Of a DNA stretch of 64,000 nt, positions 1-52,202 are shown piece by piece (the stretch's first letter is position 1; each line of letters opens with the position of its first letter). The translations under genes were made by a program, and so were the position numbers. This stretch comes from a virus: positions 51,895-115,894 of IMG/VR virus record IMGVR_UViG_3300042892_004016; one strand, written 5' to 3'. The notes beneath the pieces were generated by a model. That model saw only the letters and a program-made list of their open reading frames with translations, made no database searches and was not told where the DNA came from.

Positions 1-114
1 TCAAGCACAACACAGATTTAGTTAAATTATACTCCGGCTCACCAGACACCACGTCAATTCACAGCAGTACACCCAACACAGAAGTAGTTTAAACACAACA
101 GCAGTAAAAAAATT

Positions 115-625
115 AGTTTGATCGAGGTTCCTCGATCCTCCTTGAGTCAGCCGGGGTAAGGCCCGTAGCCGATGGATCTGGAGTATGCCCAAGAGTGATC
201 TTGGGGAATACCGAGAGGGCAATCAATATAGGGAACCCTCAATGAGTTTATAGTACACTTTGTCTTGAAACTATAAAACATGCGTCGCGGAAGAATTGTG
301 TTAGGCACAATAGCTTCACTACAGTCCCATCAAACTTTACAGAGCGACCGGTGGCGAATAATAGCAGAAAAGAGCTGATTATTCGGGGAACAGACAACAA
401 AGGATGATGGTCATGGCATGTTTATGATTTTTCCATTGGTAGTGCTTAATAGCACTACCATGGCTTCTAATCGGCATGTGAGTCTTAATACTAATAAGAT
501 ACCAGTAAATTAATCCCGAACATATGAGTGAGTGAAACGAACGAATAGAGAAGGGATTAGATGAGCGTTAGCTCATCTCTAGAGTAGTAAATGATATAAC
601 CCATTAGCATATGGTGTGCTATGGC
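115..625 (+). ncRNA. Candidate large structured non-coding RNA (or structured origin-like region)
   Basis: No credible ORF. More than 10 stem-loops in ~500 nt, e.g. 120-137, 188-205 with a GUGA (GNRA) loop, 247-277, 295-311, 355-385, 433-463 and 559-578. Long-range pairings 168-173/470-475, 327-338/399-410 and 511-517/553-559. Confidence 0.5.
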
Positions 626-802
626 TTAGAAGAATGGCATCTGTGATTTCTTGGTAGTCTCTAAGTTTTCTTCAATAATCTCATTAAGTGATACCAGTTC
701 GTCAGGACTCATGTTCAACACATCAGTATAAGATACTGACCCGCGCATGTACCAGGCTATTCTTTGTGCGTTCTTTTTGATAGCCTTTACGTCTTTCTCC
801 AT
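626..802 (-). CDS. T4 gp51-like baseplate hub assembly / tail chaperone C-terminal segment (58 aa from ATG; frame stays open upstream to 862)
   Basis: Translated by hand (below ORF-track cutoff): MEKDVKAIKKNAQRIAWYMRGSVSYTDVLNMSPDELVSLNEIIEENLETTKKSQMPFF. Lies directly downstream of the gp26-like gene, in its -1 frame. Confidence 0.7.
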   Translation of the reverse strand: MEKDVKAIKKNAQRIAWYMRGSVSYTDVLNMSPDELVSLNEIIEENLETTKKSQMPFF

Positions 803-849
803 ATTTTCAACCAGCTTCGTTATACCCGGGGAGTCTAGGTATAGAAGCT

Positions 850-1680
850 TTAGCCGAAAAAATCGCTTACATTCAACGTGAATGGTTGATCATATTCATG
901 TTGACAACTGTTACATGCGATATGCAACGGCTTGGTCTGCGTAGTCTCTCTTAGTGCCACACTGCGATCTTTGATCATATCAAACGTGTTCTTGTCAGTG
1001 TTGTACAAGAAATCCAGTATGTATGGCTTTTCAGTAACCACTAGTTCTGGTGTGGCAATGTATTCAATGGTATTGGCCAGTACTTCTACCGTGGAATCAG
1101 ATATGATCTTCAGTGCTTCACTTGTTCTTTTTTCTTTATCTGCTCCTTCTTCCATGGCGCTGATACTGTAGAACAGCTTTTGCATCTCAAACTGCTTGAT
1201 GGTACTGGCAGTGAGTTCTTTGAATGACAGTGATTTGAACTTGATTTTGAGATCGTTGATATGCAGTGGAATCTCATAATCACCGGGTACAAAGTTGTTG
1301 AGTACAATACTCAAACTAACGCCATATTGTGCTGTTTCGCTGCAGCTGGGGCAAGTGACTTCCATTTCCATTTCATTGCCGTTTGTTGCAATTTTGATAG
1401 CCACCAGTATGGCATCCAGATCAGTGCTGCTGATTGCCCAGGCATCGTGTATGCAGGGTACGCAACTGCGTATGATGTCTACAACTGCGCTGCCGTTGTA
1501 CAGTGCGTCTGGGGTTTTGCTGGTAATCTCATCAATTGCCGTCATGGGATAGACTGGAATTTCTCCGGTTTCGGGCATAGAAATAGTGGCTGCAGTGTAG
1601 CCCAAGCCCCTGCTGGGCAATTTCAAATAGATGCCGGGTCTGCGAAAATACTGTTTTAGTGGGTTATGATCTATGCTCAT
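850..1680 (-). CDS. T4 gp26-like baseplate hub assembly protein / tail assembly chaperone
   Basis: LKLPSRG start, PMTAIDE, DLDAILVAIKIAT, two CxxC pairs (CPSC, CNSC) and C-terminal DFF, typical of gp26-like proteins. AGGAG SD upstream on the minus strand. Adjacent to tape-measure-like genes. Confidence 0.75.
   Translation of the reverse strand: MSIDHNPLKQYFRRPGIYLKLPSRGLGYTAATISMPETGEIPVYPMTAIDEITSKTPDALYNGSAVVDIIRSCVPCIHDAWAISSTDLDAILVAIKIATNGNEMEMEVTCPSCSETAQYGVSLSIVLNNFVPGDYEIPLHINDLKIKFKSLSFKELTASTIKQFEMQKLFYSISAMEEGADKEKRTSEALKIISDSTVEVLANTIEYIATPELVVTEKPYILDFLYNTDKNTFDMIKDRSVALRETTQTKPLHIACNSCQHEYDQPFTLNVSDFFG
856..862 (-). promoter_or_regulatory. Putative -1 ribosomal frameshift slippery site T TTT TTC
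   Basis: Minus strand reads GAT TTT TTC GGC TAA. This X XXY YYZ heptamer is one codon before the stop, and the -1 frame is open into the 626-802 ORF. Confidence 0.65.
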
Positions 1681-1710
1681 TGATTTCTCCTAATATGGGC
1701 TGGTTGACAG

Positions 1711-1736
1711 ACTAAATATACTGAGAAGTATTTAGT
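1711..1736. promoter_or_regulatory. Pair of opposed T4-late-like promoters (ACTAAATA ... TATTTAGT)
   Basis: Perfect 8-bp inverted repeat 1711-1718/1729-1736 between divergent genes. Each half carries the TAAATA core seen upstream of many genes in the window. Confidence 0.6.
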
Positions 1737-1760
1737 GGGTAAAAGCAACCGGATAATATA

Positions 1761-4004
1761 ATGGCAGATCAAAGAGAAATACTAGAAGAATTGAACCGTG
1801 CAGCCCGTAGTTTGAGCGATGCCAGTGCGCAGCTGGATCAAAGCAATAGGGCGGCCTCAGTGACTGTCAATCAGGCCGTTAACAGCCTGCAGCTAATGGG
1901 ATCAGGTGCAATAGAGTTTTCCCGATCACTGACCAATGGACAAGAGGGCATGTCAAAATATGGTTCTGCTATTGCTGACGCGGCCAGCGGTCTGGGCGGA
2001 CTGGCGCAGTTGGCTGGTGGTCCATTTACGTTTGTGCTGGGCGGGCTGATAAAAATAGTGGGCGCAGTGGTGGGTTCAGTGCTGAAAAGCAATGACACCA
2101 TAATATCAGGCTATGACAAGCTGGCTGATGTGGGCGGAGCTGCCGCATTCAGTACTGATAGCTTGATGGCAGCGGCCGGCGCTGCAGATTTTCCCGTCGC
2201 AAACGGTTCCTTTACTAAATTAGTTGACACCATGAGTAAAATGGGCGGAGACCTAATGGGTCTGGGCTCCACCGCTGGTGAAGGCATGAAAAACTTCCTA
2301 AAGATATCCACTGTGGGGGCTGATGTAAGGCATCAGTTTAACAGATTGGGTATCAGCCAGGAAAAACTCACTCAGGTTCAGGCTCAATATGTGTCTACTC
2401 AGTTGAAGATTGGTGGATTACAGAACAAAGAAACAGACCAATTACGTAAAGAATCATTAGAATACGCCACAGAGCTGATTGAACTGTCTGCAGTAACTGG
2501 TCAAAGTGTAGATCAGATTGCAAAAAATCGGGATGAGGATGCGAAAAATTTAGCTTGGCAATTAAAGTCACGTGAGATACTGGCGCAGGCAAATGGCGAG
2601 GCCATTATGAAGCGGCTGAATGCTGGGCTTGAGTTATCCAGCAAATATGGCGCAGAGCAACGTTCGGGTATACGCGATGCTATGTCAAGGGATGCCCTGA
2701 TTACACCCGAAGCAATAAGTTTGGGTAATCAATTTGCTCTTGCTGGTGACGATTTGTTGCAGGCAATTGCTGATCTCAAAGCTGATAGAATTACTGCGAC
2801 TGATTTTGACCTGCGCATGAAGGTCGCCATAAACAAAGTTGCAGACCAATATGGCCGAACTTTTATGCTGGCTGGAAACGATACTGCAAAACAAACGGCT
2901 ATAACTTCAGACAGCCTAACAGGCGCCGCCAAACAGATAGCCAAGGGCAGTCTTGATCAAGCTGCACTTGACGTAGCTGCGGGTAAAGTACGCGCTGACT
3001 CTGCAAAACAAGCCCAAGATGCATTAAAGGATACCAGCCTGGCACTGGCAGAAGCTTTTGACAAGTTTATATCATTGATATCAGGCGCAGTTAACAGAGG
3101 ATTTGAGGCCTTGATGTATGCGTTTAAGGCCTTGACCAAGGGTATTTTTAAATTTTTAACCAGTCATGCCTCATTATTTGGAGCCGAGGACATGGATCAG
3201 TCGCTTCCCTACATGTTTGACAGCATTGAAGATTTGGTCAAGATGCAACAAGCTTCAGTTGCTGCCCTGGCTGAAGTGGAAGGAAAAAAACTGTGGGTGC
3301 TGAAGCAAAAAGGACCGAAGCCGAATATAGCTGAGGGCTTGATAGCAACAGCCAGGATGAATCTGATTGAGGGAGAAGAAAAAAAAGTCAAGGCTCAGAA
3401 GGCTGGGGTTACGTTGGCGTTGCAGCAATTGTTGGGCACAAAGGATGTAGACAAAGCACTCAAAGAAAAAGAAGCGGCAGCGGCAGTTGAGCGCAAAAAA
3501 CAAGAGATAAAGGACGCAGCAGCAAAGGTCAGCGCACCCGTAGCAGCTATTAGCGCTAATGTTGAGGCACCAGCTGCTGCTGCAGCACCAAAAACTATTT
3601 CAATCGGCGCTGGCACGGTTGCTCCTCCAACTGAAAAATTTGATAAGGGCGGCGTAGCCAAGCACCCAATGATGTCATTGGGTGCCAGTCCCAATAGTGG
3701 ACCCATAGATATCTCATTACCTGGCGGTAGAGATATTCCCACTACCCTGGAGATGCCGGCAAACCTAACCAGCCAGCGAGATAGTCTATTAACTCAAACT
3801 GAAAGCATAGACAGAATCTTATCTGGATATACGTCCAATCTTACTGCTGCAGTGGGTAATACTCCTACCACCGCACCAGCATCGACCAGGTCGTTCAATA
3901 ATGATATGATAGTAGCACTATCATACAAACTGGATGAGTTGTTGAATAAAATGAAAGACAATACCAGTTTGCAGAGCGAATTACTAGCACTTTCAAAAAG
4001 ATAA
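1761..4004 (+). CDS. Tape-measure-like protein, paralog 1
   Basis: 747 aa, Ala/Gly/Leu-rich and predicted helical. Shares motifs with the next ORF (FNRLGISQEKL vs FLKLGIGPEQL; LSAVTG vs LSMLTG; FDKGGVA vs FAEGGVA). Lies between hub chaperone and portal. Confidence 0.6.
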   Translation: MADQREILEELNRAARSLSDASAQLDQSNRAASVTVNQAVNSLQLMGSGAIEFSRSLTNGQEGMSKYGSAIADAASGLGGLAQLAGGPFTFVLGGLIKIVGAVVGSVLKSNDTIISGYDKLADVGGAAAFSTDSLMAAAGAADFPVANGSFTKLVDTMSKMGGDLMGLGSTAGEGMKNFLKISTVGADVRHQFNRLGISQEKLTQVQAQYVSTQLKIGGLQNKETDQLRKESLEYATELIELSAVTGQSVDQIAKNRDEDAKNLAWQLKSREILAQANGEAIMKRLNAGLELSSKYGAEQRSGIRDAMSRDALITPEAISLGNQFALAGDDLLQAIADLKADRITATDFDLRMKVAINKVADQYGRTFMLAGNDTAKQTAITSDSLTGAAKQIAKGSLDQAALDVAAGKVRADSAKQAQDALKDTSLALAEAFDKFISLISGAVNRGFEALMYAFKALTKGIFKFLTSHASLFGAEDMDQSLPYMFDSIEDLVKMQQASVAALAEVEGKKLWVLKQKGPKPNIAEGLIATARMNLIEGEEKKVKAQKAGVTLALQQLLGTKDVDKALKEKEAAAAVERKKQEIKDAAAKVSAPVAAISANVEAPAAAAAPKTISIGAGTVAPPTEKFDKGGVAKHPMMSLGASPNSGPIDISLPGGRDIPTTLEMPANLTSQRDSLLTQTESIDRILSGYTSNLTAAVGNTPTTAPASTRSFNNDMIVALSYKLDELLNKMKDNTSLQSELLALSKR

Positions 4005-4010
4005 CAACCA

Positions 4011-6509
4011 ATGGCCGAAGAACAGAATCCAGCAGAGTACAATGACCTCGTAAGAGACTTTACCAATGCGACCAAGCAATCGGAAGCGTCGGCCAAGCGT
4101 GGCAAGGATACAGTAGACACATTGAAGTTTGCAATTAGAGACTTGGGTAGAGTGGGCAAGACGGCCTTTACTGGTATACTTGATGTCAATGGCAGTTTTA
4201 GTTCAATGAATAATTCAGTAACCAGCGCGGGCAATATGCTGCGAAGGCTAACTGGTAGCAATTATAAAACCACAACTGCGCTGTCATTGGTAATCACTGG
4301 CATTGAAAAAACAATAAAATCATTGTTTGGATTCAATGATTCGATGATTAAGTTTTATGACGGATTGGGTGAGTACGGTATAACTGTAGGTCACAGTTCG
4401 GATCAACTGCTGAAATTGGCACACAGTGCTGGGTACTATTTGGAAAAGTCCGAGGCGTTCTCTAAGCTGTTGACTGAAACTGGCGACTCCCTGCTAGCAT
4501 TGGCACCAACTGCCTCCGAGGGAGCGGACAAGTTGGCGCTGATATTTAATAATACTCAGGGTAAAACACAAGAAGAATTTCTCAAGTTGGGCATAGGTCC
4601 CGAACAACTGAATAAGATGCAGCTTGATTATATCAAATTGCAGTCAGGATATGGCGCCAAGCTTTCAGGAAATGCGGATCAAATCAGAGAAAGATCAGTG
4701 CAGTATGCACTAAGCATTAACAAGCTGTCCATGTTGACCGGAGCCAGACGAGAAGCGGTGGCACAGACTCTTGCTGCGGCAAATGCAGATACCAAATTTG
4801 CACTAAAAAAACGCATGCTTGAGCAAGAGGGCAACCTACAGGCCATAGATGCGTTCGATCAAACAGGCACTCTGCTCAATATTACTCTGGGTGAAAAACA
4901 CGCGGCTGCATTCAGAGACCTAGCTGCCAACCATACTGCTACTACACTAGAAGGCAAAGCATTGCTGTCAAAAACTGGTGGTAGGATAGTGGGTTGGGTT
5001 AGGCAGTTGGAAGCAGGTCAACTGACTGGAATTGATGTTGCCAAACTTATTGCCAAAACGGAATCAGAATATGTCAGGACTAACCAAGAAGCGGTGAGTG
5101 CTAGTGAAGACTTTCGTAACAACATGTTTTTGAATGGTAAAAGCATGACGGCTGATGCAATACTATCGCAAATAAAAACAGAAAAAGATGTAGAAGAAAT
5201 GATTAAAAAACGTCAAGCAGGAATAGACGACGCCAAGCGTCTGCAGAACAGTCAATTGAATACGGAGAGAACGGTTAATATAGCTTTGGATAGGTTAAAA
5301 CTTGCTGTGTCCGGCCCTGCCAATTCTGTGTTTATTTGGTTGATTAAAAAAATGACACAGTTGGCGACTGGAGTATTAAAACTAGCGCTACAGCTACCAA
5401 TTGGAGAAACACTAAAAGAAAATTTGGAAGAATTTCGTAAAATTTTAGGCGGCGATGTCGAAATACAGCAACAGCTTGATGATATTAACAAAGAAGTCAG
5501 CAGAACCTCAGAGGAAACTGAAGTCTATGCAAGGATCAGCGGCAATCTTGTGGCTGCAGAAAAAGAAAAAGCACTGGCAGAACAACAGAATATACTACTA
5601 ACAAAAAGAATACAAGCTGGAGAAACAATTGATCCCAACATATTACGAGAAAATGAACTTAACCTAACCAAAAAACGAGCTGAAGTAGCAGAAATCAAAA
5701 AACGCGAAGCTGATTTGCTTAAAGGTAGAACTGTGGTTCAACTTGAAGCAGAAAAAAAAGAAGCTGAGGCTCGTAGAGAAAGATACAGAGAAACACTACG
5801 TCCTCATGAGGTAACTGCATATGAGGAAAGACGAGTTCAAGAGGCCAAACAACAGGCCAATAATTACTCTGGTCTTAATATTAAGGGCGCTGAATCTATA
5901 GCAGGTGGGCCAGTGGATCCCAAACTTATAGAATTGGCCAGACGAATACAGGCCGCAATTCCGGGGGTAAAATTTACGGCGTTCAACGACTTAACTCATA
6001 AACGTGGCAAACACGTTACTGGAACTGCTTTGGATTTTACCATGGATCCTCCACCCAAGAATGCAGAAGAAGCCAAACTGATAAAGAAAAAGTTGTATGA
6101 TTTGGGATTTAGTACCGCATTGGACGAGTATTTTACAGAACGGTCACCCGGTGCTACAGGACCCCACTTTCATGCGGCCTTTGCTGAAGGAGGTGTAGCA
6201 ACCGGTTCCAAATCAGGATACGAGGTAACACTGCATGGAACTGAAGCTATCATTCCACTGTTGCCCAATAACACAGTACCAATAAAATTAAAAAATAAAG
6301 ACAAATTATCAGATTTTAGCAGCATAACCAATTCAATCAAATCTAAATTAGCTGATGTTATGGCTAACCAGATAAACAGTGCTGCAGGCAATGATGCACT
6401 CACTGAATTGTTGGTTAACATGATTAGAGGCAAATTCGTTGCCATGATATCACAAGTAGAAATGAGCAATTCGGTACAGAGTGAGCTAAAAATGTACCTA
6501 CGTAACTAA
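4011..6509 (+). CDS. Tape-measure-like protein, paralog 2, with C-terminal M15/LAS-type Zn peptidase domain
   Basis: 832 aa, helical/coiled-coil. Near the C-terminus carries H-x6-D (KHVTGTALD) and HxH (GPHFH) motifs of LAS metallopeptidases. Confidence 0.6.
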   Translation: MAEEQNPAEYNDLVRDFTNATKQSEASAKRGKDTVDTLKFAIRDLGRVGKTAFTGILDVNGSFSSMNNSVTSAGNMLRRLTGSNYKTTTALSLVITGIEKTIKSLFGFNDSMIKFYDGLGEYGITVGHSSDQLLKLAHSAGYYLEKSEAFSKLLTETGDSLLALAPTASEGADKLALIFNNTQGKTQEEFLKLGIGPEQLNKMQLDYIKLQSGYGAKLSGNADQIRERSVQYALSINKLSMLTGARREAVAQTLAAANADTKFALKKRMLEQEGNLQAIDAFDQTGTLLNITLGEKHAAAFRDLAANHTATTLEGKALLSKTGGRIVGWVRQLEAGQLTGIDVAKLIAKTESEYVRTNQEAVSASEDFRNNMFLNGKSMTADAILSQIKTEKDVEEMIKKRQAGIDDAKRLQNSQLNTERTVNIALDRLKLAVSGPANSVFIWLIKKMTQLATGVLKLALQLPIGETLKENLEEFRKILGGDVEIQQQLDDINKEVSRTSEETEVYARISGNLVAAEKEKALAEQQNILLTKRIQAGETIDPNILRENELNLTKKRAEVAEIKKREADLLKGRTVVQLEAEKKEAEARRERYRETLRPHEVTAYEERRVQEAKQQANNYSGLNIKGAESIAGGPVDPKLIELARRIQAAIPGVKFTAFNDLTHKRGKHVTGTALDFTMDPPPKNAEEAKLIKKKLYDLGFSTALDEYFTERSPGATGPHFHAAFAEGGVATGSKSGYEVTLHGTEAIIPLLPNNTVPIKLKNKDKLSDFSSITNSIKSKLADVMANQINSAAGNDALTELLVNMIRGKFVAMISQVEMSNSVQSELKMYLRN

Positions 6510-6513
6510 AAGC

Positions 6514-6519
6514 TAAATA
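6514..6519 (+). promoter_or_regulatory. T4-late-like promoter core TAAATA (representative; also at 8305, 8619, 12550, 14274, 14620, 33013, 43841, 50986, 55774, 58258, 62123)
   Basis: Recurrent TAAATA in intergenic positions upstream of structural genes. The T4 gp55 late promoter consensus is TATAAATA, with an exact match at 50984-50991. Confidence 0.7.
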
Positions 6520-6524
6520 ATACT

Positions 6525-8297: not shown

Positions 8298-8328
8298 CTT
8301 GTGATAAATACATTATAGGAACCACCGG

Positions 8329-8550
8329 ATGAAACTTTTTGAAATGTTCGAGCCAGCAGTTAAGGGTTATCAAGATGAAGAAGATGACAATAGCAAGCCA
8401 CGGTGGAAAGAAAGTCGCAAGACTAAACTTACCCTAAGACAAATAAACAAGTTGCGCAAGATGAATGATGTGCGCAGCTACGAAAAAGCACAGAGTTTAA
8501 AGAAAATACGCAATCAATACAAACCAGTTGAACAAGCACCCGTAATGTAA
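8329..8550 (+). CDS. Small basic head-module protein (hypothetical)
   Basis: 73 aa with its own TAAATA (8305) and AGGA SD. Lies between portal and core genes. Confidence 0.75.
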   Translation: MKLFEMFEPAVKGYQDEEDDNSKPRWKESRKTKLTLRQINKLRKMNDVRSYEKAQSLKKIRNQYKPVEQAPVM

Positions 8551-8580
8551 AAGTTCAGCTATTTCCCGCCAAAACGCAAA

Positions 8581-8605
8581 AAAACAGCACATATTGTGCT
8601 GTTTT
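8581..8605. terminator. Intrinsic terminator-like hairpin (possibly bidirectional)
   Basis: AAAACAGCAC-atatt-GTGCTGTTTT, followed by TAAATA at 8619. Confidence 0.65.
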
Positions 8606-8659
8606 CTCAGCTATGCACTAAATAATTTCACGAAGCCATTTCTATAGGAGAACTTTACA

Positions 8660-14256: not shown

Positions 14257-14283
14257 ATTTGTATTATATAGAATAAATACGAT

Positions 14284-14526
14284 ATGGAAAACATTAACGA
14301 TCTTAAAAGAATGTCAGGCATAGTAAATGAATCAAAGTATGGTCAAAAGTTTGATCAGTTTCATGGCCCATTTAAGAATGACGGGAAGAAAGTCCGAGAT
14401 AAAAATTCAAAAGAACTCTGTGAATGTGAAGATACACAAACTGCAAAAGAATTAGCAGCGGTGCTTACAGACATTAAACAATTGCGTGAACTTTGTACAA
14501 AAATCAGTTCACTGCCTAATCGTTAA
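14284..14526 (+). CDS. Small hypothetical protein
   Basis: 80 aa with TAAATA 4 nt upstream. N-terminal INDLKRMSGI resembles the gp22 C-terminus. Confidence 0.7.
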   Translation: MENINDLKRMSGIVNESKYGQKFDQFHGPFKNDGKKVRDKNSKELCECEDTQTAKELAAVLTDIKQLRELCTKISSLPNR

Positions 14527-14555
14527 AAATTCTCAACGGGATGGGAAGACAAACC

Positions 14556-14586
14556 AGCGCACTGTTCGCATAAAGTGCGCTTTTTT
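14556..14586 (+). terminator. Rho-independent terminator
   Basis: AGCGCACT-10 nt-AGTGCGCT followed by a T-run. Confidence 0.8.
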
Positions 14587-14654
14587 GTTGGCGCTCAACT
14601 GCTGTTTGTCCAATAATGATAAATAAGTGATAAGAATAACGATTAGGAACATAC

Positions 14655-29417: not shown

Positions 29418-29428
29418 TTGAGGATACC

Positions 29429-29659
29429 ATGTCTGTGATTGCGGCAAGGCTGAGCAATACCGGAACACTCTACTCCAACACTGTTGGAGTAGGGTTCGAT
29501 GAAATCAGTAAGAACCATATAAGCGTCACCCCAACCGGGGTGTTCGCTACTGGTTTGGATGAAGTCACCGGAACAGAAAACGGTAGTGCTATGCAACAGC
29601 TAAATACTAATGTACTACGAATTTCGGGAGTTTTTGACGAAGTATCTGGAATAGCATAA
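29429..29659 (+). CDS. Small FDE-type adaptor protein
   Basis: 76 aa with GAGGA SD. Paralogous to the termini of ORF 24622. Confidence 0.7.
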   Translation: MSVIAARLSNTGTLYSNTVGVGFDEISKNHISVTPTGVFATGLDEVTGTENGSAMQQLNTNVLRISGVFDEVSGIA

Positions 29660-29688
29660 GTAGTATGTACATTTTGAGATAAAAAAAT

Positions 29689-32967: not shown

Positions 32968-33038
32968 TAACAATTAAGCTATACTAGCTTACCCATAATG
33001 CTTAAGATAAGCTAAATATAGATATAAGGAAAACTGAC

Positions 33039-51000: not shown

Positions 51001-51330
51001 ATGACAATCACATACAAAGTCTTAGGACAATTGAATCCCGCAGCAACAACAGCTACTACACTGTACACTGCTCCATCATTAACCAGTGCAGTGGTATCTT
51101 CACTCACTATATGCAATCAAGCCGCAGCGGTTGGTACCTTTAGAATAGCAGTTAGACCAGCTGGAGCCACTCTTAGTGCAGTACACTATGTTGCATACGA
51201 CACTGCTATACCTGCGCTAGACTCAATCACACTGAGCATAGGTATGACATTGGCCACTACTGATGTAGTTACTGTATACGCAAGTTCTGCCACCATGAGT
51301 TTTAGTCTGTTTGGTTCGGAAATCAGCTAA
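51001..51330 (+). CDS. 109-aa adaptor-like beta protein (YxxLGQ type)
   Basis: Paralog of ORF 58896; same length and shared LGQ, LYT, CNQ, GMxLAxTD and LFG motifs. Confidence 0.72.
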   Translation: MTITYKVLGQLNPAATTATTLYTAPSLTSAVVSSLTICNQAAAVGTFRIAVRPAGATLSAVHYVAYDTAIPALDSITLSIGMTLATTDVVTVYASSATMSFSLFGSEIS

Positions 51331-52202
51331 TGGCACTGAAATCGCTTACTGCACAAAATTTGTCATCGCAGCGATTTAACGTTGCGAGAGCTAATAACCC
51401 TCTATTGTTCCCTACAATTGACTATTTGATAGTCGCCGGCGCCGGCGGCGGTGGCGCGGGCCATGCAGGCGGCGGTGGCGCTGGTGGATTATTGCAAGGA
51501 AGTTTAGCTGTTAGTGGACAAACCTACAATTTAATAGTAGGTGGTGGTGGTAACGGTGGAGTATATGGTTCTACCACTTCAGTCAATGGATCACCCTCTA
51601 CTGGGTTTGGCTTAACTGCTATTGGTGGTGGATATGGTGGTGGGCAAAACCAACCAGGTACAGCTAACAGGAATGGCGGATCTGGGGGTTCAGGTGGAGG
51701 AGGTGCAAACACCACTGACGGTACAGGTACAGGTGGCACAGGCACTGTTGGTCAAGGTAATAACGGTGGATCTGGTTCCGGAGGGTCTAATTGGGCAGGT
51801 GGTGGTGGTGGTGGTGCCGGCGCGCAGGGAGCAAATAATCCAAGTACCTCACAAGGAGGTGCAGGTGGTATCGGAATCGCTTCCTCAATTACAGGATCGG
51901 CTGTGTACTATGCTGGCGGCGGTGGCGGCGGTGGCGGAGGCAGTGGCGGATCCGGCGGTAACGGTGGTGGTGGTGGTGGCACAGGCGAAAATTCCGGCCC
52001 AGGGTCTGCTGGAACGGTTAATACTGGTGGCGGAGGTGGCGGCGCCCGAAATAGTTCGGGCGGTAATGGCGGCTCTGGTATAGTTATTATTCGTTACCCA
52101 GATTCGTTTGGTGCAGCATCTACAACCGGCTCACCCACGATAACAGTAGCAGGCGGCTACAGAGTATACCAGTTTACCGCCTCAGGTAGTATAACATTTT
52201 AA
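51330..52202 (+). CDS. Glycine-rich tip protein
   Basis: 290 aa, TAATG-coupled. DYLIVAG..GGG polyglycine domain ending YQFTASGSITF. Confidence 0.75.
   Translation: MALKSLTAQNLSSQRFNVARANNPLLFPTIDYLIVAGAGGGGAGHAGGGGAGGLLQGSLAVSGQTYNLIVGGGGNGGVYGSTTSVNGSPSTGFGLTAIGGGYGGGQNQPGTANRNGGSGGSGGGGANTTDGTGTGGTGTVGQGNNGGSGSGGSNWAGGGGGGAGAQGANNPSTSQGGAGGIGIASSITGSAVYYAGGGGGGGGGSGGSGGNGGGGGGTGENSGPGSAGTVNTGGGGGGARNSSGGNGGSGIVIIRYPDSFGAASTTGSPTITVAGGYRVYQFTASGSITF

What the first reader, a model, noticed from the sequence alone, without database searches (positions are those of the whole stretch)
115..625. ~500-nt densely structured non-coding segment: candidate large phage ncRNA
Seen: almost the whole interval folds. 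Local stems are GATCGAG/CTCGATC (120-137), CCCAAGA-GTGA-TCTTGGG (188-205, GNRA loop on the + strand), GAGGG/CCCTC (215-240), TTTATAGT/ACTATAAA (247-277), ATTGTG/CACAAT (295-311), CGAATAAT/ATTATTCG (355-385), a 10-bp perfect stem at 437-460 and AGATGAGC/GCTCATCT (559-578). Nested long-range helices CCATCA..CTTT/AAAG..TGATGG (327-410) and GCCGAT/ATCGGC (168-173/470-475) would close multibranch domains. The rest of the window is tightly packed with genes, so 600 nt without a gene stands out. I could not recognise tRNA, tmRNA, RNase P or group I/II intron cores. Inference: an unclassified large structured RNA, or a structured replication/packaging origin.
Basis: partly seen in the sequence, partly recalled or inferred. 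Interest (0 to 1): 0.8.

Follow-up and report, generated by a model that had tools for sequence, protein, structure and literature searches.

The report
Knotted large RNA of jumbo phages
The gene-free gap behind the resolvase gene of this uncultured giant T4-like phage encodes a real, intricately folded, doubly knotted non-coding RNA of about 360 bases plus a hairpin tail; over 150 related phage contigs keep it at the same spot, no RNA catalogue lists it, and its job is unknown.

Summary
The finding is real. Window 120-478 (+ strand) is the core of a large structured non-coding RNA, and 511-578 is a conserved hairpin tail.

- **Conservation:** Two motif scans of IMG/VR fetched 157 contigs carrying it (136 distinct sequences). 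It always sits directly after a PDDEXK/RusA-like resolvase gene that ends a gp55-gp47-gp46 operon, and usually converges on gp51/gp26.
- **Structure:** On 108 sequences, 98 proposed base pairs are 89.9% paired, against 30-43% when partners are slid. 77 pairs show compensatory double changes and 0 of 500 shuffles reach this. A model-fitted alignment of the central domain gives 97.1%.
- **Fold:** About 17 helical segments, a four-way junction, a GNRA-capped hairpin and two pseudoknots (325-328/386-389; loop 260-265/392-397).
All eight local stems hold. Both long-range helices do not.
- **Strand and coding:** G-U excess and GNRA loops point to the + strand. There is no coding periodicity.
- **Known families:** Nothing in Rfam matches, including RF01718, GOLLD, ROOL, group I introns and RNase P. 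My model found no copy in phages Phosso and Atu_ph07 or in the PA5oct resolvase-hub locus. One of its most conserved motifs is absent from 185,579 prokaryote genomes.

Function is unknown. My best guess is a trans-acting folded RNA (scaffold or ribozyme). A replication-primer role is a rival. This scan has already reported the same RNA family on other genomes.

The parts
105..116 (+). Conserved A-rich leader (UAAAAAAAUUAG; AAAAAUUnG in most relatives). It ends 4-7 nt before P1. Possible -10-like promoter element or single-stranded 5' leader.
   Evidence: Conserved in alignments. The consensus sigma-70 scan found no promoter here, so the promoter reading is inference only.
120..137 (+). P1 hairpin (GAUCGAGG-UU-CCUCGAUC).
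   Evidence: Compensatory variants such as GGCUCA/UGAGUC, GUCCUG/CAGGAC and GGUCGGG/CCUCGAC. 6 of 7 pairs have double changes, although MAFFT misaligns this variable stem.
138..183 (+). P2 (138-141/180-183, CUCC/GGAG) enclosing P2a (146-148/171-173) and hairpin P2b (150-155/162-169). The invariant box CCUCCUUGAG lies here.
   Evidence: P2 is 100% paired with CUUC/GAAG and CUCU/AGAG variants. 147:172 and 150:169 covary.
188..205 (+). P3 hairpin capped by a GNRA tetraloop (GUGA here). Some relatives carry 40-90 nt insertions in its tip.
   Evidence: 188:205, 189:204, 191:202 and 192:201 covary with up to 5 pair types. Loops are GCGA, GCAA, GUAA or GUGA in most rows of A2.
209..353 (+). Four-way-junction domain closed by P4 (209-213/349-353). 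It holds P5 (215-219/236-240 plus 223-225/232-234), P6 (242-244/279-281 plus 247-254/270-277), P7 (284-289/343-348) and P8 (290-293/314-317 plus 295-300/306-311).
   Evidence: 97.1% of cells paired and 42 of 50 pairs with double changes on the model-fitted alignment A4, which also includes P10. The same helices are 95-100% paired on the MAFFT alignment, except the variable P8.
318..342 (+). Highly conserved junction strand ACUACAGUCCC...UUUACAG. 325-328 is the 5' strand of pseudoknot PK1. 335-336 covary with 354-353.
   Evidence: ACUAC is invariant in 108 sequences. 325:389 occurs as U-A, C-G and A-U. 353 covaries with both 209 and 336.
356..384 (+). P10 hairpin (356-362/378-384 plus 363-365/374-376).
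   Evidence: 9 of 10 pairs with double changes; 98.6% paired on A4.
386..397 (+). 3' strands of the two pseudoknots: PK1 386-389 pairs with 325-328; PK2 392-397 pairs with the P6 loop 260-265.
   Evidence: PK1 is 96.2% paired with all 4 pairs double-changed. PK2 is 97.3% paired with 5 of 6 pairs double-changed. In a swap test PK2 cognate duplexes are 2.9 kcal/mol better than non-cognate ones.
409..419 (+). Box A (GGUCAUGGCAU), first of two short words that change together between relatives.
   Evidence: 411:471 identity co-variation (GG 55, UU 23, GA 24). Matching one-base insertions occur in both boxes.
437..467 (+). P11 hairpin (437-446/451-460) with the near-invariant stem GGUAGUGC/GCACUACC, followed by AUGGCUUC.
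   Evidence: Near-invariant even in 28 copies fetched without using this motif. G438A with C459U double change in L141 and L147. G-U variants fall only on the + strand.
469..477 (+). Box B (AAUCGGCAU), the twin of box A.
   Evidence: As for box A. Direct A-B pairing is not supported by a swap test.
480..510 (+). Variable A/U-rich linker between core and tail.
   Evidence: Little conservation and many indels.
511..578 (+). Tail. A long irregular hairpin (511-517/553-559, inner stem about 521-529/541-548) is tipped by GA-[GU-GAA-AC]-GA (530-540). A second hairpin follows at 559-566/571-578.
   Evidence: The mini-hairpin covaries (GCGAAGC, GUGAAAC, ACGAAGU, ACGUAGU). 561:576, 564:573 and 565:572 covary. 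The mini-hairpin motif occurs only here in the 116-kb record. No U-tract terminator.

Best explanation
Window about 120-578, + strand, is the gene for a large non-coding RNA of a clade of uncultured T4-like jumbo phages. It is read in the same direction as the upstream gp55-gp47-gp46-resolvase operon. It is either co-transcribed with that operon or starts from a weak -10-like element just before P1 (inferred). The RNA folds into a compact body: a 5' arm (P1-P3 with a GNRA loop), a four-way junction (P4-P8), hairpins P10 and P11, and two pseudoknots that tie the P6 loop and the conserved junction strand to the segment 386-397. A separate hairpin tail follows. The fold and its selection are shown. 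What it does is inferred. The many invariant unpaired or sequence-fixed positions (CCUCCUUGAG, ACUACAG, AACCGGU, GGUAGUGC/GCACUACC-AUGGCUUC) suggest that it acts as a folded RNA in trans, as a specific protein-binding scaffold or a catalytic RNA. It probably acts during the DNA recombination/replication to late phase of infection, rather than as a regulator of a neighbouring gene.
For: Same gap, same synteny and full-length similarity in 157 viral contigs, while the flanking proteins are only 39-84% identical. 106 of 375 core positions are at least 95% conserved and 51 are invariant. Covariation: 89.9% paired against 30-43% for slid partners, 77 of 98 pairs with double changes, 0 of 500 shuffles; 97.1% and 42 of 50 pairs on the model-fitted alignment. 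Both pseudoknots are supported. Strand: 581 G-U cells against 204 A-C cells, and GNRA loops read on the + strand. No period-3 conservation and no consistent ORF. One copy per genome. It stays directly after the resolvase gene even where extra genes separate it from gp51. There is no downstream gene in the same direction to regulate. Contigs from metatranscriptome libraries of three studies cover it, one running from the resolvase gene into P1-P3.
Against: No discrete transcript, 5' end, 3' end or strand of expression was shown: the RNA data are contigs that also cover the flanking genes and may contain DNA. No promoter or terminator consensus was found. No partner protein, ligand or substrate is known. 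All copies come from one syntenic clade, so gene-neighbourhood association carries no information, and related sequences inflate shuffle statistics. Sequences were fetched with exact motifs, which biases apparent conservation of those motifs.
Confidence: 0.55

Rival explanations
1. Replication-origin RNA. The transcript is a structured pre-primer, as ColE1 RNA II is, or as the R-loop RNAs of the T4 origins oriF and oriG are. It would fold so as to stay hybridised to the DNA in the A/T-rich linker (480-510) and prime leading-strand synthesis. The twin boxes would be iteron-like repeats or DNA-gripping words.
For: It lies at the end of the recombination/replication-linked gp46/gp47/resolvase operon. 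A variable A/U-rich stretch follows the conserved core. Two short words co-vary in identity like direct repeats. In a complete 367-kb relative the RNA lies 5 kb from the local minimum of cumulative GC skew and the main divergent strand switch. In phage Phosso a structured, ORF-poor 1-kb gap lies between an RNase HI gene and the resolvase gene. The roles of ColE1 RNA II and of T4 origin transcripts are established knowledge, not tested here.
Against: GC skew here follows gene orientation and the minimum is 5 kb away, so it is weak evidence. Primer RNAs do not normally need two pseudoknots and about 100 near-invariant positions. The Phosso gap is not detectably homologous. No origin mapping exists.
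Confidence: 0.15
2. Cis-acting 3' element of the resolvase operon. A compact knotted fold at the mRNA 3' end would block 3'-5' exonucleases, direct processing, or insulate the two converging transcription units from each other.
For: It starts 27 nt after the resolvase stop and sits between convergent genes. One metatranscriptome contig runs from the resolvase gene into the element. The tail hairpins lie where both operons should end.
Against: Stability or terminator elements are usually simple hairpins. This one has about 17 helical segments, two pseudoknots and long invariant unpaired strands. There is no U-tract terminator on either strand. In several relatives extra genes separate it from gp51, so an insulator between those two operons is not the constant feature.
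Confidence: 0.15
3. A DNA-level element (origin, packaging or recombination site) whose hairpins form in single-stranded DNA. The RNA would be irrelevant.
For: The tail contains a GNA-triloop mini-hairpin with flanking G-A pairs. This motif is known to be very stable in DNA (established knowledge; sequence). The fold z-score is good on both strands.
Against: Wobble pairs are asymmetric: 581 G-T cells on the + strand against 204 A-C cells. GNRA loops and two covarying pseudoknots are hallmarks of RNA tertiary folds.
Confidence: 0.05
4. A very divergent or degenerate member of a known catalytic RNA class: a group I intron remnant or an RNase P-like RNA.
For: T4-like phages often carry group I introns (established knowledge). 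The order P4 5' ... PK1 5' ... P4 3' - hairpin - PK1 3' recalls the P3/P7/P8 pseudoknot of group I introns. The size is close to bacterial RNase P RNA (my reading).
Against: No Rfam hit at E<=1 in the window or E<=10 in 20 relatives. There are no flanking exons: the resolvase ORF is complete and the downstream sequence is full of stops. An extra helix (P7) encloses the PK1 strand, which group I introns lack. The U that would be the bulged U of an RNase P P4 helix covaries as a Watson-Crick pair (325:389).
Confidence: 0.03

Closest known systems
GOLLD (RF01998) and ROOL (RF03087) large ornate RNAs
   Same: Large (over 350 nt), multi-helix, pseudoknotted non-coding RNAs with many conserved unpaired positions. 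They are often carried by phages or prophages and their function is unknown. Cryo-EM shows that they work as folded RNA assemblies (PMC12286853).
   Different: No sequence or structure match. This RNA is smaller, is not next to tRNA genes (none in the window), is fixed at one syntenic site behind a resolvase gene, and is confined to uncultured T4-like jumbo phages. Multimer formation has not been tested.
The unnamed resolvase-adjacent pseudoknotted 'twin-box' RNA reported by this scan on other jumbo-phage genomes
   Same: Same position (after the resolvase gene, facing gp51/gp26), same size, two pseudoknots and two short boxes that change together (against my).
   Different: Those are AI notes on other DNA. 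Sequence overlap with my copy is only 4-7 of 83 short words, so this window holds a fairly distant member. Its closest non-identical relative is 81% identical in the core.
Polynucleobacter-1 motif (RF01718; Weinberg et al. 2010, PMC2864571)
   Same: Earlier notes of this scan name it as the closest catalogued motif. It is also a freshwater or estuary RNA motif of unknown function.
   Different: Not matched here: no hit at E<=10 in this record, in four relatives' whole records or in 20 relatives' loci, and none at E<=1 in the window.
ColE1 RNA II and T4 origin (oriF/oriG) R-loop transcripts
   Same: A structured transcript of several hundred bases beside replication/recombination genes, followed by an A/T-rich stretch. 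This is a works-like comparison only.
   Different: No homology. No origin has been mapped. The degree of tertiary structure and sequence invariance is much higher than in those primers.

Membership tests
Any Rfam 15 family (4227 models) | Covariance-model match at or near the gathering score | tested here: not met
   0 matches at E<=1 in window 1-3000. In 20 relatives' loci only six chance-level hits at E 0.29-9.8 to unrelated families.
Polynucleobacter-1 (RF01718) | Model score of at least 37 bits | tested here: not met
   No match at E<=10 in the own record and in four relatives' records of 244-525 kb. None.
GOLLD / ROOL | Match to RF01998 or RF03087 | tested here: not met
   No Rfam match of any kind.
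GOLLD / ROOL | Frequent adjacency to tRNA genes | tested here: not met
   ARAGORN finds no tRNA in the 64-kb window.
Group I intron | Match to RF00028 | tested here: not met
   No Rfam hit.
Group I intron | Insertion in a host gene with two exons | tested here: not met
   The upstream ORF is a complete 185-aa PDDEXK protein. There is no exon-like frame downstream.
Group I intron | P3-P7 pseudoknot core with P4-P6 domain | tested here: inconclusive
   The pseudoknot order is only partly similar. An extra helix, P7, encloses the PK1 strand.
Bacterial RNase P RNA | Match to the RNase P models | tested here: not met
   No Rfam hit.
Bacterial RNase P RNA | P4 helix with a conserved bulged U | tested here: not met
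   The AGUCC-like segment pairs with 386-389, and U325 covaries as a Watson-Crick pair.
Resolvase-adjacent double-pseudoknot RNA of jumbo phages (family defined here and in earlier notes of this scan) | Position directly after the PDDEXK/RusA-like resolvase gene, on the same strand | tested here: met
   Window 93-625 follows the resolvase ORF that ends at 92. The same arrangement holds in every locus that extends far enough to include the gene.
Resolvase-adjacent double-pseudoknot RNA of jumbo phages (family defined here and in earlier notes of this scan) | Four-way junction plus two pseudoknots supported by covariation | tested here: met
Resolvase-adjacent double-pseudoknot RNA of jumbo phages (family defined here and in earlier notes of this scan) | Two short boxes flanking the conserved hairpin that co-vary in identity | tested here: met
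   411:471 and matching insertions.
Intrinsic terminator | G+C-rich hairpin followed by a U-tract | tested here: not met
   No terminator-like site in 93-625 on either strand.
Primer or origin RNA (ColE1 RNA II type) | Persistent RNA-DNA hybrid and a mapped replication start at its 3' end | not testable with these tools
   Only indirect context is available: the operon and a GC-skew minimum 5 kb away.

The most novel reading that the evidence does not exclude
The RNA is a new natural ribozyme or a self-assembling RNA-only machine of jumbo phages. Alternatively it is the structured primer that fires the phage's replication origin, with the twin boxes as its DNA- or protein-recognition words.
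Probability: 0.2. Interest if true: 0.9.

Novelty: new variant of a known kind. Interest (0 to 1): 0.78.

Why it matters
Large, highly conserved structured RNAs are rare. Almost every class whose function was solved turned out to carry out a basic process, for example the ribosome, RNase P, group I and II introns, tmRNA and riboswitch-ribozymes. It has a well-determined secondary structure with two pseudoknots and is absent from Rfam. That makes it a ready target for probing, cryo-EM and function hunting. It may also reveal an RNA-based step in the replication or recombination of giant phages.

Tried and rejected
- **Rfam:** scans of the window, of 20 relatives' loci and of the Phosso locus gave nothing.
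- **GenBank phages:** blastn of the region found no match.
- **Cultured relatives:** nhmmer on the Phosso, Atu_ph07 and PA5oct loci, and model R1 on the whole Phosso and Atu_ph07 genomes and on the PA5oct and Phosso loci with filters off, gave no significant hit.
- **Prokaryote genomes:** a P11-based pattern gave 0 hits.
- **Promoter and terminator scan:** nothing in the gap.
- **RNA-seq:** runs X1-X4 hold the sequence. All are Logan contigs that also span the flanking genes, so they show neither a discrete transcript nor its strand. Parts without cover mean nothing.
- **Twin boxes:** direct pairing of box A with box B is rejected by a swap test (cognate -4.22 against non-cognate -4.28 kcal/mol). 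Both boxes are most complementary to the P2b region, but with only a 0.4-0.5 kcal/mol cognate advantage, so this is undecided.
- **Resemblance to 5S rRNA:** words such as UGGUAGUG and CCGAAC...AGUGAAACG are shared. I judged this chance: they are not collinear, sit in a different structural context, and give no Rfam 5S hit.
- **Anti-Shine-Dalgarno reading of CCUCC:** rejected, because it is paired with GGAG in P2 and covaries.
- **Small conserved protein:** rejected by the lack of period-3 conservation and of a consistent frame.
- **Literature:** three searches found no description of this RNA. The two genome-language-model preprints I opened do not mention it. My look-up in the IMG/VR-based catalogue of structured RNAs in viruses and phages (PMC10690425) failed on a term-length error and was not repeated, so that catalogue is unchecked.

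Full report
**Where the window lies**

The window is bases 51895-115894 of a 115,894-base IMG/VR virus record that CheckV rates 28% complete. Its genes are those of a T4-like jumbo phage:
- a T4-type portal (PF07230, E 3e-106);
- a gp26-type baseplate hub (PF12322);
- many very large structural genes.

The closest cultured relatives by portal and hub proteins are distant. They are Sinorhizobium phage Phosso, Agrobacterium phage Atu_ph07, Pseudomonas phage PA5oct and Rak2-like phages (29-54% identity).

Upstream of the gap, on the + strand, lies an operon of four genes:
- a gp55-like late sigma factor;
- gp47 (SbcD-like);
- gp46 (SbcC-like);
- a 185-aa PDDEXK/RusA-like resolvase, which ends at window 92.

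On the - strand, a 58-aa gp51-like ORF (626-802) and the gp26-like hub gene (850-1680) converge on the gap.

**The observation**

Bases 93-625 hold no ORF of note. They fold better than dinucleotide shuffles on both strands, with z = -3.33 on + and -4.88 on -. There is no tRNA or tmRNA in the window and no Rfam match at E<=1.

**Relatives**

- The hub protein led to three syntenic loci. In these the gap is better conserved at the DNA level than the flanking proteins (53-61% identity), with obvious compensatory changes.
- A second scan used a different anchor (CCUCCUUGAG...CUGGAGU). It added 36 more copies, 28 of them without the 16-mer, which removes that ascertainment bias.
- In all, 157 loci and 136 distinct sequences carry the element.
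- Synteny is constant. The resolvase gene lies directly upstream on the same strand, and gp51/gp26 lie downstream on the other strand. Where extra genes are inserted, the element stays with the resolvase gene.
- Contigs reach 525 kb, and two relatives' records are rated complete at 367 and 525 kb.
- The window's copy is 62-81% identical to the others in the core. One near-identical contig is the exception.

**Structure**

Mutual information on a 108-sequence alignment recovered the helices seen by eye and revealed two pseudoknots. In window coordinates, on the + strand:

| Element | Pairing |
|---|---|
| P1 | 120-127/130-137 |
| P2 | 138-141/180-183 |
| P2a | 146-148/171-173 |
| P2b | 150-155/162-169 |
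| P3 | 188-194/199-205, GNRA loop |
| P4 | 209-213/349-353 |
| P5 | 215-219/236-240 and 223-225/232-234 |
| P6 | 242-244/279-281 and 247-254/270-277 |
| P7 | 284-289/343-348 |
| P8 | 290-293/314-317 and 295-300/306-311 |
| P10 | 356-362/378-384 and 363-365/374-376 |
| P11 | 437-446/451-460 |
| PK1 | 325-328/386-389 |
| PK2 | 260-265 (P6 loop)/392-397 |

Counts on the tool-made alignment A2:
- 89.9% of 9481 cells are standard pairs, against 30-43% when partners are slid by 1-3 columns.
- 77 of 98 pairs have changes on both sides.
- None of 500 shuffles reaches any of the five measures.
- PK1 is 96% paired and PK2 is 97% paired, and nearly every pair in both shows double changes.

I built a covariance model of 206-400 (R1). 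It realigned 100 copies, giving 97.1% pairing with 42 of 50 pairs doubly changed. That alignment is fitted to the structure, so it leans towards it.

Position 353 covaries with both 209 and 336, and 335 covaries with 354. This suggests a junction base triple or an alternative pairing.

**Strand and coding**

- In the proposed pairs, G-U occurs in 581 cells and A-C in 204. A-C would be G-U on the other strand.
- The P3 loop reads GNRA on the + strand in most rows of A2.
- The rare variants in the invariant P11 stem are G-U on the + strand.
- Conservation has no period-3 component, and the longest open frames are short and inconsistent.

So this is a + strand RNA, not a protein gene.

**Extent**

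- The conserved core runs from about 112-120 to 478.
- A variable A/U-rich linker follows at 480-510.
- A conserved tail follows. It is a long irregular hairpin (511-559) tipped by a covarying GA-[NN-GAA-NN]-GA mini-hairpin (530-540), and then a hairpin at 559-578.
- The mini-hairpin motif occurs only here in the 116-kb record, so it is not a genome-wide repeat.

**Twin boxes**

Segments 409-419 and 469-477 flank P11 and change together in identity: T/T or G/G at 411/471, and the same extra C, G or A in both.
- A swap test does not support pairing between the two boxes.
The cognate advantage is small and no compensatory change is seen.
- This remains unexplained. A shared reader (protein or third strand) or alternative pairing is possible.

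**Expression**

Metatranscriptome runs from three studies hold the sequence. When laid on the locus, their contigs cover the element. In two runs they also cover both flanking operons. One 505-nt contig runs from the resolvase gene into P1-P3. Contigs cannot show strand, ends or level, and DNA carry-over is possible. So expression is plausible but not shown. No sigma-70 promoter or U-tract terminator is found. A conserved AAAAAUUnG leader just before P1 could be a -10-like element; this is inference.

**Comparison with known RNAs**

- No Rfam family matches the window or 20 relatives.
- Earlier notes of this scan name RF01718 (Polynucleobacter-1) as the closest catalogued motif. It does not match this record or four relatives' whole records at E<=10.
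- Model R1 finds exactly one copy in the own record. It finds none in the complete genomes of Phosso and Atu_ph07, and none in the PA5oct resolvase-hub locus.
- A P11-based pattern is absent from 185,579 prokaryote genomes.
- The topology recalls group I introns only loosely and differs from RNase P (see the membership rows).
- Literature searches found no description. One relevant catalogue, PMC10690425, could not be checked because the look-up failed.

The nearest known kind is the group of large ornate phage-borne RNAs, GOLLD and ROOL. It shares their style but has no homology to them.

**Earlier work in this scan**

The scan has already reported this RNA family many times on other genomes, with the same conclusions: real, doubly pseudoknotted, twin boxes, not in Rfam, function unknown. 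I re-derived these points independently on this window.

**Function**

What is shown is a strongly selected, compact RNA fold at a fixed genomic site. What follows is inference.
- *Best reading (0.55):* the amount of invariant sequence outside helices, the sequence-fixed P11 stem, the GNRA loop and the two pseudoknots argue for a trans-acting folded RNA, either a protein-binding scaffold or a ribozyme.
- *Primer/origin RNA (0.15):* suggested by the recombination operon, the A/U-rich linker, the repeat-like boxes and a GC-skew minimum and strand switch 5 kb away in a complete relative. That skew follows gene orientation, so it is weak evidence.
- *Cis-acting 3' element of the operon (0.15):* possible, but it seems over-engineered for that role.
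- *A pure DNA element, a degenerate known ribozyme or a coding region:* unlikely.

**Caveats**

- All copies belong to one syntenic clade, so the sequences are related and shuffle controls overstate significance. The slid-partner control and the many independent pair types are the stronger evidence.
- Sequences were retrieved through exact motifs.
- No R-scape, probing or transcript mapping was possible here.

Noticed in passing
L124:6224-7237 (Sinorhizobium phage Phosso PV764938.1, about 229759-230772): A 1-kb stretch without annotated genes and with only short ORFs lies between an RNase HI gene and the Holliday-junction resolvase gene. Its first half folds far better than shuffles on the locus - strand (z -6.44). 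It has no Rfam hit and no detectable homology to the RNA studied here. It may be an analogous RNA in a cultured phage.
   Followed up: partly
L186:2168-3680 (Pseudomonas phage PA5oct NC_071039.1, about 75667-77179): Between the RusA-like resolvase gene and the baseplate-hub region, only four tiny annotated ORFs (38-50 aa) fill about 1.5 kb. This could be another unannotated RNA region at the equivalent spot. My models found no homology.
   Followed up: partly
window 8298-8659, 14257-14654, 29418-29688 and 61840-62327: Four other gene-free gaps of 270-490 nt. The first two contain terminator-like hairpins followed by T runs just upstream of the next gene (for example AACAGCACATATTGTGCTGTTTT before 8660).
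   Followed up: no
window about 1700-1760, 6500-6524, 8610-8630, 33010-33030: A recurring CTAAATA (T4 late-promoter-like TATAAATA variant) motif lies 10-60 nt upstream of several structural genes, including both sides of the divergent gp26/tape-measure region. It is probably the late promoter of this phage. The RNA's own upstream region lacks it.
   Followed up: partly
L001:809-929 (own record 51295-51415, junction of gp46 and the resolvase gene): Metatranscriptome contigs of runs X1 and X2 carry 771 other letters in place of 119 here. In many relatives the distance from gp46 to the RNA varies by 0.6-1.9 kb. This indicates a variable extra gene between gp46 and the resolvase gene.
   Followed up: no
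own record G000:C1:22464-36251 (upstream of the window, - strand): A single open reading frame of 4595 codons, one of a run of very large - strand structural genes.
   Followed up: no
window 209, 336 and 353: Position 353 is complementary to both 209 and 336 across relatives, and 335 pairs with 354. This suggests a junction base triple or two mutually exclusive pairings, possibly a conformational switch.
   Followed up: partly
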